DNA of 64,000 nt. It comes from the human T2T-CHM13v2.0 reference genome, Homo sapiens. The stretch lies in the NCBI RefSeq assembly GCF_009914755.1, contig NC_060929.1; one strand, 5' to 3'. The translations under genes were made by a program, and so were the position numbers. Shown here piece by piece: positions 2,581 to 23,525 of this stretch. The notes under the pieces are model-generated. The model had not been told where the DNA came from. It did not search any database and was given only the letters and a program-made list of their open reading frames with translations. The first letter of the stretch is position 1; the number at the start of each line of letters is the position of its first letter.

Positions 2581-2984
2581 AGTCAGATTTTGGTCCTTCC
2601 ACACCCATCCCAATTTGGGCCTCCCGTCTGGATTACAGGAAACTCCTCCTCCTCCTCCTTCGACTTCTTGGATACTGGAGCCTGAGCTGAAGAATGTTTT
2701 CATTTCTTTGCCTCATGGCCGCCTGTTACCTCTCCCCAGCGGAGAGGCAGCTTGCTTGGCTCCTGCTGACCCCGGCAGGGAGCCAGGTGCCTTGGGTGTC
2801 AGCTCCCGTACTGGCCGTGGCGGCTCTGAACTCGGCACCTGCTGACTGGGGTAAGGCTCTGGTGATCCTGGGCCCGGGTATAGGTGCTCATGCCACCCCC
2901 ACCCCCCGGGTCAGCTCCTCTGTACTCTGGGCCCACGTGGAGGCTGGTTCTCCCTGGCCCTGAGAACACCGTGGTGCCTCCTCA

Positions 2985-3220
2985 CTTGGCTTTGGCTGAC
3001 ATTCTGGGGATTCAGAGCTAGACTCTGGCTGTCTTTGAGGGGACTCCAGGTGTAGATCTTGCTGATGCTCGGGGGACCCTGGGCTTGGCTCTGGCTGCCT
3101 TTGGGGGGGACCCCAAACCTTTGCACCCTGCTGCAGACTGGGTGATCCTGGGCTTGTCTCTGGCTACCTTTGGGGGGACCCCAGGCCAGCTTGCTGCAAC
3201 ACTTGGAGAAGACCCAGGCT
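2985..3220. repeat. Degenerate ~65-bp tandem repeat (3-4 copies)
   Basis: Core ctctggct(g/a)(t/c)ctttg(a/g)ggggac(t/c)cca recurs at ~3024, ~3089 and ~3157. Confidence 0.6.
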
Positions 3221-3410: not shown

Positions 3411-3981
<571 letters not shown>

Positions 3982-18574: not shown

Positions 18575-19700
18575 TAATTCAGTTTTCTTACCTTCCACCT
18601 TAGGAAGCTACAGAAATAACTATAGTGTAATGTAAACCAGATATAAAAATAGAACAAAAAATTATTTACAGAAATCATTATAATAGAAATGATAAACAAA
18701 ACCAAGGGCTGCTTCATAGGAAAGATAAATAGAATTGATAAACCTCCAGCCAGGCTAACCATCAAGAAAAGCTAGGAGACACAATTTACAAATAATATAA
18801 ATAAAAGGAAGAATCATTCCTGTTGATCCCATTAATATCAAGCAGATAATAAAAGAATACTTAGCATAAATCTATGCTCACAAATTTGACAGCTTAGATA
18901 AAACTAACAAATTCCTTCAAAGGCAGAAACTATATCATAAGTACCCAAAGGAGACTCAGATAATCTGAGTAGGCTTATATCTATTACAGAAATTGAATCA
19001 ATAAGAACTTTTTTAAAAATGCATTTTTAAAAATGATTTTACTGAATTCTACCTAATTCTTACAAGGGAAAACATAGTCTTATTATATACACAGCTGATT
19101 AAAATTCTAAACATTTACCCAGTTACATTTTAAAATTATGCCCATTGCAAAATCTGCACGAGAATGAGGGCAGCTGTATTCACAATCACCTGAACGGGAA
19201 GCAGCTGAGATGCTCTTCAGGCAGTGAGTGCAGCCACCCACATTGTTACAGGAACCCAGTGGAACATGATTCACTGATAAAACTTAGTAAGCCGTTAAGC
19301 TAAAAAAGATAGGAAAAATCTTGCATGCATATTGCTAAGTGAAATCAGTTAGTCCTAAGTGACTGCATACTTTATGATTCCAATTCTATAGAATCTGGGG
19401 AAAGAAAATCGACAGAGGCAGTAAAATAAATGATATTTTATTTTACTCATGTTTTGAGTGTGAAACTTTTCTGTCTGGGTGATGAATGACATTATGAGTT
19501 TGTCAAAATCCGTAGGCTGAACAACACCGGGTGAGCCTTACTGCAAACTCTAGACGTTCATTAAGAAGAAGATGATATCACTATTGCTTCAGCCACTATA
19601 ACAAATGCACCACATTCATGTAAGATGTGATCACAAAAAAGATACTGAGGGGGGAGGGTATATGGGAACTTTCTGTACTATTTCAATTTTTATGTTAATT
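18575..19700 (+). mobile_element. Old L1 fragments (ORF2 and 3' region)
   Basis: A-rich L1-like motifs (ataaacctccagccaggcta, acaaattccttcaaaggcagaaacta, atactttatgattccaattctatag). Confidence 0.7.
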
Positions 19701-20195
19701 TACAAGTTTCACATGATCTCCATTTGTTTGAAAACGCAGCAACATGATCTCAGGAAGAGTTCCATTTTAGCCAATGTCTAACAATCAGCGAAATATCTAA
19801 ACCTTGCATTGAGATGTTCTTTACTATTAAAAGTGAACCAAACTTGAAGCGGAAATACAGTCACTAGTGACTGACTAGTGCTACACTAGTCAATTTGCAC
19901 ACATGAAATAAAGAAGATACAGTGTAGCAACGTCAGAGTGGTCTGAAGTGTGGGACACTGAAGAGTGTGGAATCCTTATGCTTGCGAGGGTGAGTAACTG
20001 AATTTCCACAGTACCTCTACGTCGCTGCTCTTCAGGGGGCAAATTAGGATCAGGGCGCATATGCGCTCTAAATCTGTGCGTAGATTCCTGCTGATCCAAG
20101 GAGTTATCTGGGAAATGTAAGAAAATAAAGACAGCTGTTGACATCTTGCTGCAAAAGACCATAAAGAAATGAGGAATCGTTTATTCACAGTTCAA

Positions 20196-21288
20196 CCCAT
20201 TTCCTGTGTTCCCCGAGAACACTGTGCTGCCAGCGAGCTGTACTTTGAAGTGGTGGCCTGCCTCTTCACATCTGTGGGTATTTCTAGTCGGGTGGGATGA
20301 GAGACTGAGAAAAGAAGTAAGACACAAAGACAAAGTATAGAGAAATAACAGTGGGCCTAGGGGACTGGCACTTAACATACTAAGGACTTGCACTGGCACT
20401 GGTTTCTGAGTTCTTTCAGTTTTTATTGATTATTTTTATTATTTCAGCAAAAAGGAATGTAGTAGGAGGGCAGTGTGATAATAAGAAGAAGGTCAGCAAA
20501 AAACATGTGAGCAAAAGAATCTGTGTCATAATTGAGTTTAAGGGAAGGTAATGTGCCTGGATGTGGACGTAGGCCAGATTTATGTCTCTTTCTACTTAAA
20601 CATCTTAGCGGAGTAAAGAATAACAAAGCAGCATTGCTGTAAACATGTCTTGCTTCTTACTATCGGGCGGTTTTTCTTTGATCTTAGAATTGAACAAATG
20701 TACAGTCGGGTTTTATACTGAGACATTCAGTTCTTAGGAGCAGGCAGGAGACAGTGGCCTTCTTCTATCTTAACTGCAAGAGGCTTTCTTTTTTTACTAA
20801 TCTACTTTAGCACAGACTTTTTACGGGTGTCGGGCTGGGGGACGGTCAGGTCTTTCTTATGAGGCTATATTTCAGACTATCACATGGGGAGAAACTTTGG
20901 ACAATACTTCACTTTCAAGGGCAGAGGTCCTTGCGGCTTTCTACAGTGCGTTGTGCCTTTGGTTTATTGAGACTAGAGAATGGCGATGACTTTTACTAAG
21001 TATACTGCTTGTAAACATTTTGTTAACAAGGCACGTCCTGCACAGCCTTAGATCCTTTAAACTTTGATTGTATACAACACATGTTTTTGTAAGCTCTAGG
21101 TTGGGTCAAAGTAGTTGGGTCAAAGTGGCTGGGGCAAAGCTACAGATTAACGTCTCAGCAAAGCAATTGTTCAAAGTACAGGTCTTTTTCAAAATGGAGT
21201 CTCTTATGTCTTCCTTTTCTACATAGACACAGTAACAGTCTGATCTCTCTTTTCCCTACACAGTTTTCCTTTCTAAATGGGAAATGGA
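20196..21288. mobile_element. piggyBac MITE (MER75A-like, ~80 bp) split by the LTR5 insertion: 20196-20245 and 21261-21288
   Basis: Left TIR cccatttcc, right TIR gggaaatgga; flanked by tcaa and ttaa (TTAA target); internal ccccgagaacactgtgctgccagcgagctg. Confidence 0.7.
20246..21260 (-). mobile_element. HERV-K(HML-2) solo LTR, LTR5A-like, heavily G>A hypermutated
   Basis: Minus strand starts TGTAGGGAAAAGAGAGATCAGACTGTTACTGTGTCTATGTAG and ends ...CACTTCA; ~1015 bp; degenerate TSD tactt / cagtt. Confidence 0.9.
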
Positions 21289-21294
21289 TTAAAT

Positions 21295-21803
21295 CAGGGG
21301 TCCCCAACCCCTGGGCCATCGATAGTGTGTGGCCTGTTTGGAACTGGGCTGCACAGCAGGTGGTGAGCAGCCAGCTGGGAGCAAAGCTTCATCTGTATTT
21401 ACAGCCGCTCCCCGTCACTCCCATCACCGCCTGAGTTCCACCTCCTGTCAGATTAGCCAGGGCATTAGCTTCTCATAGAAGCGCAAACCCTACTGTGAGC
21501 TGCACAGGCCAGGGATCCAGGCTGCATGTGCTTTATGAGAATAAATGCCTGATGATGGGTCACTGTCTCCCATCACCCCCAGATGGGACTGTCTCGTTGC
21601 AGGAAAACAAGCTCAGGGCTCCCACTGATTCTACCTTATGGTGAGTTGTAGAATTACTTCATTAATTATTACAATATAATAATAAAGTGCACAATAAATG
21701 TACAAGAATCATCCTGAAAGCATCCTTCCTCCCCACCCTCATCCTCTGAAAAATTATGTTCCATGAAATTGGCCCCTGGTGTCAAAAAGGCTGGGGACCA
21801 CTG
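21295..21803. mobile_element. hAT-Charlie DNA transposon, MER1A-like
   Basis: TIRs caggggtccccaacc ... ggctggggaccactg; 8-bp flanks gattaaat / ggttcaat. Confidence 0.85.
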
Positions 21804-23525
21804 GGTTCAATGTTTGATCCATTGTCCACTGTCACCATCTGCAGCGATAAGCCTCCTGAAACTGAGCTGGGCGTTAGGAAGAACTTGCACTGTGGATTGC
21901 ACTTAACAACGGTGCAGACCGACTGTGTAGGCAAATCCCTGTACTGAGATAAGACAAGGTAGAAGGGCGGCAGATGGGAGTGACCAAGAGCACGGGGAAC
22001 TGGTGCACAAAGGTTTGGGCTCAAGTCCTTATTTGGAAGCTACATGAACTGAGAAGTTCTATAGACCCTTCTGTGCCTCAGTTCCCTCTTCTGAGTGTGG
22101 AAATGTTCATAATGGCCTATGTTACATTCTAAGGCTAAAAGTAATTAAACAGAGGTAAATTCTGAAGAAAACAGGTGCTTCAGGAATCCCCTTCACCCAT
22201 TCCAACCTCCAGCTTCATTATCAAACCCTATCCATCTTCCTCATGATTGTCAGACCAGACTTTCATGGTCCCTCATTGTCACAGCTGCAGCTCTCCCTGA
22301 GAGCTGCCTTCACCCTCACCCCAGCCAGTCCCTCTCTGGAATCCTCCTCCCATACACACATACCACCTTTCTAGCATAAGCCGGATTCTGCCACTGTCTA
22401 TTTGAAGTCCTGCGTATGACTTCCATCTCCTACTGCAAGAGTCATCAGCTCAGCCCAACTTCCCTAAGCCCTGATGATCCAGCCGTCATCTGTCTCTGCC
22501 ACCTCCTGTCCTCACTGTCACTGTGCTCTCCCTTCACCACCAATATTGTAACTGACGAGCCTATCCCCACATACAATGTCCTCCTTAAACTTTCTCTGCC
22601 TGGAACTTCTTCTGCTTTAACCAATATGAGAAATTGGACTACCTTCTTTATGGCTCATAACACATGCCATCTACCCGGCAAAACCTTTCCAAAAGGTCAG
22701 TTCTCATTTCTCATTGCACATCCCTCCATGGCAGCAGAGGCCATATTATGTCTACCTTTGTATTTATTTACAATCTGTTTGTAAATCATGACATGCTGAA
22801 TAAAATTACTGCCACATTTATATTGGTGCCATGAATCCTTAACATACCATAAACACTCAGCCCTTGCCATGTGAGAGAACAAATGGGTATATAAACTTAA
22901 TATTATTCTCCTTTGTATTAGCAACACATATACTTACCCTGGTCTGGATCCACCGAATGTTTTCTACCCCACTGCCACACACCTGCCCAAATCCTAAGCA
23001 GCATTTAGAAACTAGCTCAAGTGTCTCACTGCAGGCAGTTTTCCTTGTTCCCTCAAAAACAAAGTATGATACTGTCCCTGAATTCCTTACTCAGTTTTCT
23101 TTCCTGTAAGGTTTCAATTCCTATCTTACGTTAATAAAGATTTAGATCCACATGATCCGTCTTCATATGTAAGCTATTTCAGAGCAGTTTCCATATCTAC
23201 CATGTGTTGTATCCTTCAGAAGGTCCAGTATTCCCCAGAAAACTACAGCTCTAACAATCTCTTGAGAAAATCAACAAGTATTGCAAAATATCCTGATTAC
23301 AGATTTTGAGGACAGCAAAAATGTGAATGAATGCCTGTATTATGCAATTTTTGTAAGATTACAATCACCACTGTTGATGACAACAATTTTACATTCAGCT
23401 TGTATTTAGTACTTGCTTCATTTGTTTGTCAATCAATTTGGGCTGAAATCTGAAAATTATCCTTCCTGCCATTAATCCACTCTCCAAATAATTTCTATGA
23501 CACAAATTCCAGGGATCGTAATTTC

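What the first reader, a model, noticed from the sequence alone, without database searches (positions are those of the whole stretch)
20246..21260. HERV-K(HML-2) LTR5 solo LTR carrying a fossil APOBEC3G-type hypermutation signature
Seen in sequence: across ~1015 nt of the + strand there is a single CCC (the terminal ccctaca) but more than 15 GGG runs, and many CpGs survive (ttacgggtgtcggg, tatcgggcgg). Compared with LTR5 consensus as I recall it, C-runs are converted at the 3' C: cagccctagatcccttaaacctt>cagccttagatcctttaaacttt; taatccacctcagcacagaccctt>taatctactttagcacagactttt; agttcccagg>agttcttagg; tttaccaag>tttactaag; gaaaccttgg>gaaactttgg. Established: the LTR is on the minus strand, so the window's + strand is the retroviral minus-strand cDNA. 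CC>CT there (GG>AG on the viral sense strand) is the APOBEC3G signature; TC>TT is the A3F/D/H signature. Inference: this provirus was edited in a single replication cycle before germline integration, recording innate antiviral restriction in an ancestral primate, and later collapsed to a solo LTR. Hypermutated HML-2 copies are known elsewhere; I cannot tell whether this locus has been reported.
Basis: partly seen in the sequence, partly recalled or inferred. Interest (0 to 1): 0.82.

Follow-up and report, generated by a model that had tools for sequence, protein, structure and literature searches.

The report
APOBEC3G-edited HERV-K solo LTR
This is a roughly 1-kb leftover of an ancient HERV-K retrovirus whose DNA was heavily mutated by a host antiviral enzyme just before it entered the germline; this kind of fossil is already known, but the editing makes this copy look about twice its real age in a published catalogue.

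Summary
The observation and the interpretation both hold. Window 20246-21260 (minus strand) is a full-length solo LTR of the older HERV-K(HML-2) LTR type, with a 5-bp target-site duplication. A paralogous empty site on chromosome 2 confirms the duplication.

- **Excess changes.** Compared with 29 natural genomic copies, it carries about 53 private G>A changes on the viral sense strand against 7.5 C>T. The other copies have 2-18 G>A.
- **Context.** 73% of GG sites are edited, 21% of GA, and 3-4% of GC or GT. CpG accounts for about 2 of the changes.
- **Flanks.** Both flanks are clean: 2 of 82 GG sites changed, against 34 of 46 inside the LTR.
- **No sibling.** No other copy shares the edits.

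This is the APOBEC3G-type footprint of editing during reverse transcription, before integration. The enzyme's identity is inferred from sequence context only.

The locus is already catalogued as HML2.LTR317 (LTR5A, hg19 chr5:180116551-180117566, Subramanian 2011). That table gives it the highest age of all 196 LTR5A solo LTRs (28.4 My). The paper's main text does not mention APOBEC or hypermutation. Removing the excess G>A gives roughly 12-15 My.

It is a new, well-documented member of a known kind, of modest interest.

The parts
20246..21260 (-). Full-length (1015 nt) solo LTR of the older HERV-K(HML-2) LTR type, listed as LTR5A in print. It carries about 47 excess sense-strand G>A changes.
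   Evidence: Full-length matches at 87-89% identity to 29 fetched copies, out of 40 scored from 1371 candidates. TG...CA ends. Substitution spectra and contexts. Listed as HML2.LTR317.
20241..20245 (.). Target-site duplication, left copy on the + strand (TACTT). It has one mismatch to the paralogous empty site (CACTT).
   Evidence: The chromosome 2 paralogue carries the 5-mer once, and the alignments of both window flanks overlap on it.
21261..21265 (.). Target-site duplication, right copy on the + strand (CAGTT). It has one mismatch to the paralogous empty site.
   Evidence: Among the other copies, 22 of 29 have perfect 5-6 bp duplications and 6 have one mismatch.
18746..20245 (.). Host flank, part of the pre-integration site. 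It serves as the internal control and shows no strand-biased G>A.
   Evidence: Against the chromosome 2 paralogue, in LTR-sense orientation: G>A 17, A>G 19, C>T 22, T>C 17 over 1374 aligned nt. GG>AG at 1 of 44 sites.
21261..22760 (.). Host flank on the other side, also a control. It includes an old interspersed repeat at about 21285-21804.
   Evidence: Against the chromosome 2 paralogue: G>A 10, A>G 10, C>T 12, T>C 9 over 669 aligned nt. GG>AG at 1 of 38 sites. Repeat matches.

Best explanation
A HERV-K(HML-2) virus of the LTR5A lineage was reverse-transcribed in, or on its way into, a germline cell of an ancestral catarrhine, probably a hominoid. An APOBEC3G-type cytidine deaminase was present in the particle. 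It deaminated C to U on the single-stranded minus-strand cDNA, preferentially at the 3' C of CC. Plus-strand synthesis then fixed these as G>A on the viral sense strand. The edited DNA was integrated by the viral integrase, which made a 5-bp duplication. Later recombination between the two LTRs left one LTR.

Shown here: the strand-specific, GG-centred, element-confined and copy-private G>A excess; the LTR family membership; the duplication; and the empty paralogous site.

Inferred: the enzyme's identity, that a single replication cycle was responsible, that the lost internal genes were equally edited (which would have made the provirus defective on arrival), and the route to the solo state.
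For: **Overall divergence.** The window copy is 88.9% identical on average to 29 natural copies. Those copies are 93.0-95.2% identical on average to the rest of the set.

**Substitution spectrum (triplet polarisation, no reference sequence built).** Window-private G>A is 52.9 against C>T 7.5. The other 29 copies have G>A of 2.3-18.5 (median 6.1).

**Column counts.** The window has A in 57 columns where at least 20 of 29 others have G. It has T in only 7 columns where at least 20 have C. For the other copies these counts are 1-22 and 3-13.

**Context.**
- GG 32.5 of 44.8 edited (73%); GA 12.2 of 57.4 (21%); GC 3%; GT 4%.
- GGG 94%, GGT 94%, GGA 66%, GGC 20%.
- About 2.4 of the changes are at CpG.

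**Fisher tests against each of 29 copies.**
- GG against GY: median p 2.9e-14, worst 2.6e-12.
- GRD (G, then A or G, then any base but C) against control contexts: median p 1.6e-13.
- Each of the other 29 copies, used as query, gives a median p of 0.09-1.

**Flanks against the chromosome 2 paralogue.** GG>AG at 2 of 82 sites, against 34 of 46 in the LTR (p 1.6e-18). The four transition classes are balanced in both flanks.

**Position and sharing.**
- Edits occur in all five fifths of the LTR.
- The copies that share an edited column are scattered, at most 7 of 57 columns per copy.
- The best non-self match in the genome search is 89%.

**Integration and family.**
- 5-bp duplication with a paralogous empty site.
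- Copy L016 lies 172 nt upstream of a Gag_p10 domain and is followed by an RT fragment with a very strong match (E 1.1e-65) to PDB 7sr6_A. The paper that bears that code has the HERV-K RT structure as its title (listing only).
Against: - No orthologous locus from another primate could be examined. That the edits predate integration therefore rests on the sharp LTR boundaries, not on shared ancestry.
- The enzyme is inferred from context alone.
- GA sites are edited at 21%, with GAG at 50% and GAA at 15%. This is more than background, so the footprint is not purely GG.
- The 29 comparators were the copies most similar to the edited query (40 scored of 1371 candidates). This could bias which columns look private.
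- Both copies of the duplication carry a mismatch. They differ from each other at 2 of 5 positions.
- The window copy has an unexplained high private T>C count of 9.3, against a median of 3.3 and a maximum of 11.6.
- CC/GG asymmetry by itself is not unusual in this window.
Confidence: 0.9

Rival explanations
1. The enzyme was not an APOBEC3G orthologue alone. The footprint is a mixture from an A3G-type enzyme and a GA-preferring APOBEC3 (of the A3F, A3D or A3H type) packaged in the same particle. The process and timing are otherwise the same.
For: GA sites are edited at 21%, against 3-4% for GC and GT. GA against GY gives a median p of 5e-5 (that test took context from the edited copy, which inflates the GA count). 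With reference context against L002, GA is 14 of 63 and GC plus GT is 4 of 94. Esnault 2008 (PMC2531183, passages read) reports GA-context editing of HERV-K by A3B and A3F, GA or GT by A3DE, and GG by A3G.
Against: Within GA sites the preference is GAG (50%) over GAA (15%). I recall GAA as the A3F-preferred triplet. The avoidance of C at +2 is the same at GG and GA sites, as if one enzyme were responsible. GG is favoured over GA in all 29 comparisons (median p 6e-5). Armitage 2012 (PMC3310730, passages read) tabulates GA>AA rates alongside GG>AG in A3G-only single-cycle infections.
Confidence: 0.2
2. The G>A changes arose after integration, from strand-biased damage or APOBEC action on the chromosomal copy, for example while it was transcribed or single-stranded in the germline.
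For: APOBEC-type clustered mutation of chromosomal DNA is known in other settings (recalled, not examined here). No orthologue was available to date the changes.
Against: The bias stops at the LTR ends: GG>AG at 2 of 82 flank sites against 34 of 46 inside. The flank transition classes are balanced. The edits span all fifths of the 1015 nt. None of the 29 other chromosomal copies of the same sequence shows the pattern.
Confidence: 0.03
3. The copy belongs to, or was gene-converted from, a divergent A-rich LTR subfamily. On this reading the differences are inherited rather than edited.
For: Private changes other than G>A number 28.1, third highest of the 30 copies. This hints at a slightly divergent source.
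Against: The best other genomic match is 89%. In 27 of the 57 edited columns no other copy shares the A, and in 20 more only one does. The sharers are scattered over 28 copies. Ordinary subfamily divergence would not put 73% of its changes' targets at GG sites on one strand.
Confidence: 0.02
4. The G>A excess comes from reverse-transcriptase misincorporation under a skewed nucleotide pool, without a deaminase.
For: Armitage 2012 (PMC3310730, passage) cites a study in which dNTP-pool imbalance affected RT misincorporation, and which took this to explain the G-to-A bias seen in HIV evolution.
Against: The target choice is GG over GA over GC and GT, with C avoided at +2. That is the deaminase-type context used by Hypermut. 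About 47 excess changes in 1 kb is far above an error-rate effect.
Confidence: 0.02

Closest known systems
HML2.LTR317 in Subramanian et al. 2011 (Retrovirology 8:90, PMC3228705), Additional file 2
   Same: Chromosome 5, minus strand, span 1015, type LTR5A, hg19 180116551-180117566. Strand, length and chromosome end match the window locus. The distance to FLT4 also fits hg19 coordinates that I recall, which I did not check.
   Different: The table gives an age of 28.44 My (24.8-32.09), the highest of the 196 LTR5A rows. The count of 196 is; I read all 8 parts by eye. The main text has no occurrence of 'APOBEC' or 'hypermutat'. The hg19-to-T2T correspondence is inferred, not lifted over.
Hypermutated HERV-K(HML-2) elements of Lee, Malim and Bieniasz 2008 and Armitage et al. 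2008 (both J Virol 82)
   Same: These are germline HML-2 copies with a strand-specific G>A footprint attributed to human APOBEC3G, and to a lesser extent A3F. I saw this summarised in Koito and Ikeda 2013 (PMC3576619, passage).
   Different: Neither paper is held, so I could not see which loci they list. From memory each describes two elements, and these are proviruses rather than solo LTRs. That is recalled, not checked.
Edited LTR retrotransposons from genome-wide screens (Carmi 2011; Anwar 2013; Knisbacher and Levanon 2016, PMC4866542)
   Same: The phenomenon and the detection logic are the same: pairwise alignments within a subfamily, with runs of consecutive G>A mismatches on the coding strand. 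The window LTR meets the stated run criterion (one run of at least 10, or two of at least 5) in 28 of 29 pairs. None of 812 control pairs meets it.
   Different: I could not see their locus lists. Carmi 2011 and Anwar 2013 are not held. The supplementary file of Knisbacher 2016 that might hold them was not searchable. Whether this locus is in those lists is open.
APOBEC3G-hypermutated HIV-1 proviruses (for example Armitage et al. 2012, PMC3310730)
   Same: GG>AG dominates, with a lesser GA>AA component. Editing is all-or-nothing and heavy within one genome (passages).
   Different: That is an exogenous lentivirus in somatic cells, studied within one replication cycle. Here the record is a germline fossil of a betaretrovirus-like element, reduced to a single LTR.

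Membership tests
HERV-K(HML-2) solo LTR (LTR5A/LTR5B type) | Full-length similarity to a multi-copy LTR family of about 1 kb | tested here: met
   40 scored matches out of 1371 candidates. The 29 fetched copies are 1004-1036 nt long and 87-89% identical over all or nearly all of the query (positions 1-1015, or 1-1007/1009).
HERV-K(HML-2) solo LTR (LTR5A/LTR5B type) | TG...CA termini | tested here: met
   In sense orientation the element starts with TG and ends with CA, like the other copies.
HERV-K(HML-2) solo LTR (LTR5A/LTR5B type) | 5-6 bp target-site duplication, and no internal proviral sequence on either side | tested here: met
   The paralogous empty site on chromosome 2 carries the 5-mer once. 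Each window copy differs from it at 1 of 5 positions. Both flanks align to the paralogue right up to the junction. 22 of 29 relatives have perfect 5-6 bp duplications.
HERV-K(HML-2) solo LTR (LTR5A/LTR5B type) | Members of the LTR family flank betaretrovirus-like HERV-K internal genes | tested here: met
   Copy L016 is followed 172 nt downstream by Gag_p10 (E 4e-22). It is then followed by an RVT_1 fragment with a very strong match (E 1.1e-65, 128 aligned residues) to PDB 7sr6_A. The paper that bears that code has the HERV-K RT structure as its title (listing only). One provirus was examined.
HERV-K(HML-2) solo LTR (LTR5A/LTR5B type) | Subgroup-specific insertions that separate LTR5A from LTR5B and LTR5Hs (Subramanian 2011) | not tested
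   No repeat library is on hand, and no subgroup reference was built. The LTR5A label rests on the published table. The length of 1015 nt fits the roughly 1004-nt LTR5A quoted in that paper.
APOBEC3G-type hypermutated retroelement | G>A in large excess over C>T on the viral sense strand, compared with relatives | tested here: met
   52.9 against 7.5; the other copies have ratios of 0.3-2.7. 57 against 7 columns.
APOBEC3G-type hypermutated retroelement | Preference for GG over GA, and over GC or GT, with C disfavoured at +2 (the GRD context: G, then A or G, then any base but C) | tested here: met
   73%, 21%, 3% and 4%. GGG and GGT 94%, GGC 20%. All 29 Fisher tests give p of 2.6e-12 or lower.
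APOBEC3G-type hypermutated retroelement | Not explained by CpG decay | tested here: met
   About 2.4 of 52.9 G>A changes are at CpG. The CpG count is 14, against a family median of 15.
APOBEC3G-type hypermutated retroelement | Confined to the reverse-transcribed element and absent from host flanks | tested here: met
   GG>AG at 2 of 82 flank sites against 34 of 46 in the LTR, p 1.6e-18. The flanks were compared with a paralogue, not an orthologue.
APOBEC3G-type hypermutated retroelement | Edits private to one integration, not a propagating lineage | tested here: met
   No copy shares more than 7 of 57 columns. The best other match is 89%. Only 40 of 1371 candidates were scored.
APOBEC3G-type hypermutated retroelement | Edits present in every species that carries the orthologous insertion | not testable with these tools
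   No other primate genome is held.
APOBEC3G-type hypermutated retroelement | The enzyme was the A3G orthologue of the host at the time | not testable with these tools
   Context only. A minor GA component leaves room for a second enzyme.

The most novel reading that the evidence does not exclude
The hypermutation of this particular solo LTR has not been reported, and it explains why the locus is listed as the oldest of all 196 LTR5A solo LTRs. If so, solo LTRs are a largely unread archive. They outnumber proviruses about tenfold. Each one keeps the editing record of a provirus whose genes are gone. A family-wide count would give the rate at which APOBEC3G-hit HML-2 genomes still reached the germline. 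In this similarity-selected sample it was 1 of 30 LTR5A-type copies. Such a count would also correct divergence-based ages, starting with the next outliers in the same table.
Probability: 0.45. Interest if true: 0.4.

Novelty: new member of a known kind. Interest (0 to 1): 0.3.

Why it matters
It is a clean, single-locus record of an APOBEC3G-type enzyme hitting a HERV-K infection in a human ancestor. About three quarters of the GG targets in the LTR were destroyed, yet integration into the germline still succeeded.

There is also a practical consequence. Ages for solo LTRs that are based on divergence from a subgroup reference are inflated by such editing. This locus is listed at 28.4 My, the oldest LTR5A solo LTR. 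About 58% of its private changes are excess G>A, so a figure near 12-15 My is more likely. That changes the prediction for which primates share it: great apes, and perhaps not Old World monkeys.

The phenomenon itself is well established for HML-2 and for LTR elements generally.

Tried and rejected
**Method choice.** I did not compare the LTR with a subgroup reference sequence. All spectra come from pairwise and triplet comparisons among natural copies aligned with MAFFT in a script. I did not use DNA alignment for this family.

**Target-site duplication by eye.** No duplication was visible in the two flanks alone. The two copies differ at 2 of 5 positions. It became clear only through the chromosome 2 paralogue.

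**Older paralogues of the flank.** The copies on chromosomes 10, 16 and 5 (L054, L064, L068) lack the stretch around the junction, so they say nothing about the insertion site.

**More proviral copies.** The link to internal HERV-K genes therefore rests on one copy that was already held, L016.

- Lee 2008, Armitage 2008, Anwar 2013 and Carmi 2011 are not held.
- The Knisbacher 2016 supplements held as text total 307 characters, and one file was not searched.
- A search for APOBEC3, LTR5 and G-to-A together found 3 papers, none about this.
- Whether this locus appears in any list of edited elements therefore stays open.

**Phrase searches in the supplement.** They failed across table cells, so I read all 8 parts instead.

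**Copy L016.** It has a raised G>A count (22 columns against 9) but no GG bias (median p 0.79). I rejected it as a second hypermutated copy.

**Position along the LTR.** The edited fraction of GG sites by fifths is about 0.76, 0.65, 0.92, 0.71 and 0.56. There is no clear gradient. The two GG sites in the first 7 nt are unedited.

Full report
**What is there.** Window 20246-21260 has, on its + strand, 1 CCC against 17 runs of three or more G. It has 14 CC against 72 GG, and 14 CpG. Of about 630 sliding 1015-nt windows, the one starting at 20201 has the lowest CC/GG ratio. That alone proves little, because the stretch near 22201 has a stronger asymmetry in the opposite direction (CC 100, GG 17).

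The comparison with the family is what counts. A search of the window's own genome found 1371 candidates, of which 40 were scored. The best non-self matches are full-length at 87-89% identity. In viral sense orientation (the reverse complement of the window), the window copy compares with the 29 fetched copies as follows:

| Sense-strand count | Window copy | 29 other copies |
|---|---|---|
| GG | 14 | 48-61 (median 56) |
| CC | 72 | 63-81 |
| CpG | 14 | 7-22 (median 15) |
| A | 321 | 261-284 |
| G | 174 | 218-242 |

So one dinucleotide on one strand has been depleted fourfold, and G has been turned into A.

**The substitution spectrum.** The 30 copies were aligned in a script. The window copy is 88.9% identical on average to the others, which are 93.0-95.2% identical on average to the rest of the set.

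Changes were polarised by triplets. A site is assigned to one copy's branch when two other copies agree with each other and differ from it, and the counts are averaged over all pairs. On this measure:
- the window copy has 80.9 private changes, of which 52.9 are G>A and 7.5 are C>T;
- the other 29 copies have 17.6-39.1 private changes, G>A of 2.3-18.5 (median 6.1), and G>A:C>T ratios of 0.3-2.7.

As integer counts, the window has A in 57 columns where at least 20 of 29 others have G. It has T in only 7 columns where at least 20 have C. For the other copies these counts are 1-22 and 3-13. In the 31 columns where all 29 others agree and the window differs, 22 changes are G>A.

**Context.** With the downstream base taken from the comparison copies and CpG set aside, the edited fractions are:
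- GG: 32.5 of 44.8 (73%);
- GA: 12.2 of 57.4 (21%);
- GC: 3%;
- GT: 4%.

Only about 2.4 G>A changes sit at CpG. The triplets are as follows:

| GG triplets | Edited | GA triplets | Edited |
|---|---|---|---|
| GGG | 94% | GAG | 50% |
| GGT | 94% | GAA | 15% |
| GGA | 66% | GAC | 2% |
| GGC | 20% | GAT | 0% |

This is the GG-first pattern, with C disfavoured at +2, that Hypermut encodes as GRD (G, then A or G, then any base but C).

Hypermut-style Fisher tests against each of the 29 natural copies give:
- GG against GY: median p 2.9e-14, worst 2.6e-12;
- GRD against control contexts: median p 1.6e-13;
- GG against GA: median p 6e-5.

With each of the other 29 copies as query, the median p is 0.09-1.

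**The edits are private and confined to the element.** In 27 of the 57 columns no other copy shares the A, and in 20 more only one does. The sharers are spread over 28 copies, with at most 7 columns each. There is therefore no sibling and no subfamily.

The flanks provide an internal control, because they belong to a low-copy duplicated segment. A paralogue on chromosome 2 aligns to both flanks at 82-89% identity.
- In LTR-sense orientation, one flank shows G>A 17, A>G 19, C>T 22 and T>C 17 over 1374 nt.
- The other flank shows 10, 10, 12 and 9 over 669 nt.
- GG>AG occurs at 2 of 82 flank sites, against 34 of 46 in the LTR compared with its nearest copy (p 1.6e-18).

Edits occur in all five fifths of the LTR. 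The bias therefore begins and ends with the reverse-transcribed DNA.

**Anatomy of the insertion.** The family starts with TG and ends with CA. Among the other copies, 22 of 29 have perfect 5-6 bp target-site duplications and 6 have one mismatch. One copy, L016, is a proviral 5' LTR.

The window copy looked as if it lacked a duplication. The chromosome 2 paralogue resolves this, because it is an empty site. It carries CACTT once, where the window has TACTT, then the LTR, then CAGTT. So the LTR has a 5-bp duplication in which each copy has since acquired one change. Host sequence runs right up to both ends, so this is a solo LTR.

**Family.** Copy L016 lies 172 nt upstream of a Gag_p10 match (E 4e-22). 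An RVT_1 fragment follows it, with a very strong match (E 1.1e-65, 128 aligned residues) to PDB 7sr6_A. The paper that carries that PDB code has the HERV-K RT structure as its title (listing only). Between the LTR and gag there is an 18-nt stretch that I recall as resembling the tRNA-Lys primer-binding site; I did not test this.

Additional file 2 of Subramanian et al. 2011 lists HML2.LTR317: chromosome 5, minus strand, hg19 180116551-180117566, span 1015, LTR5A. Chromosome, strand and exact length match. The correspondence with T2T coordinates is inferred, not lifted over. The subgroup-defining insertions were not tested here.

**Mechanism.** The best explanation runs as follows:
1. An APOBEC3G-type deaminase, carried in the particle, deaminated the 3' C of CC on minus-strand cDNA.
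2. Plus-strand synthesis fixed the changes as G>A.
3. Integrase inserted the edited DNA.
4. Recombination between the two LTRs later removed the internal genes.

The footprint, its confinement, its privacy and the integration signature are shown. The enzyme's identity, the single cycle and the state of the lost genes are inferred.

The GA component is real. It prefers GAG over GAA and shows the same avoidance of C at +2 as the GG sites. I read this as the minor specificity of the same enzyme, and I give a second GA-preferring enzyme 0.2. Post-integration damage, a divergent subfamily, and nucleotide-pool errors are each at or below 0.03, for the reasons given under the rival explanations.

**What counts against, or is left open.**
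- No orthologue could be examined.
- The comparators were chosen by similarity to the edited query.
- The flanks were compared with a paralogue rather than an orthologue.
- Private T>C is high (9.3 against a median of 3.3) and unexplained.
- Changes other than G>A number 28.1, third highest of the 30 copies. The source element may have been slightly divergent.

**Relation to what is known.** APOBEC3G footprints on germline HML-2 are established:
- Esnault 2008 found GG-context G>A excess in full-length HERV-K copies (PMC2531183, passages read).
- A review attributes clear A3G, and lesser A3F, footprints on ancient HERV-K elements to Armitage 2008, and cites Lee 2008 among the studies showing APOBEC3 restriction of reconstituted HERV-K ex vivo (PMC3576619, passage read). 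Neither primary paper is held.
- Genome-wide screens of LTR elements use runs of consecutive G>A mismatches (Knisbacher and Levanon 2016, PMC4866542, passages read).

The window LTR meets that run criterion in 28 of 29 pairs, against 0 of 812 control pairs. It may well sit in such a list, but I could not see those lists.

The main text of Subramanian 2011 has no occurrence of 'APOBEC' or 'hypermutat'. Its table gives this locus 28.44 My, the highest value among the 196 LTR5A rows. The count of 196 is, and I read all eight parts by eye. The next highest are 28.06, 27.52, 26.82 and 26.44 My. The paper puts LTR5A activity at about 15-21 My.

Since 46.7 of the 80.9 private changes (58%) are excess G>A, scaling the listed age gives about 12 My. 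Allowing for the somewhat high count of other changes, I put it at 12-15 My. This is a rough, inferred figure.

**Verdict.** This is a new, well-controlled member of a known kind, with a small practical point about dating. Interest 0.3.

Noticed in passing
L016 (G000:C6:61821416-61825441): This is the 5' LTR of a provirus whose gag runs almost directly into pol: Gag_p10 at locus 2692-3066 and an RT fragment at 3468-3875, so a large internal deletion. Its LTR has a raised G>A count (22 columns against 9 for C>T) but no GG preference (median p 0.79).
   Followed up: partly
Subramanian 2011 Additional file 2, rows HML2.LTR272 (hg19 chr4:184647421-184648434) and HML2.LTR613 (hg19 chr12:38389333-38390356): These are the next-oldest LTR5A solo LTRs in the table (28.06 and 27.52 My), well above most LTR5A rows. 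They are candidates for the same kind of editing-inflated age. Their sequences were not fetched.
   Followed up: no
window 18746-20245 and 21261-22760: The flanks belong to a low-copy duplicated segment. One paralogue lies on chromosome 2 near 131.84 Mb (82-89% identity). Older ones (68-76%) lie on chromosome 5 near 176.6, 178.3 and 178.6 Mb, on chromosome 16 near 33.0 and 34.4 Mb, and on chromosome 10.
   Followed up: partly
window 21285-21804: An old, very abundant interspersed repeat (4289 candidates; scored copies 77-80% identical) starts about 25 nt from the LTR end. It is present in the chromosome 2 paralogue but absent from the older paralogues, so it inserted between the two rounds of duplication. 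No family name was obtained.
   Followed up: partly
window 22000-23000: Strong C-over-G strand asymmetry: CC 100 against GG 17 in the 1015-nt window at 22201, and GC skew down to -0.42. There is no tandem repeat. The cause was not examined.
   Followed up: no
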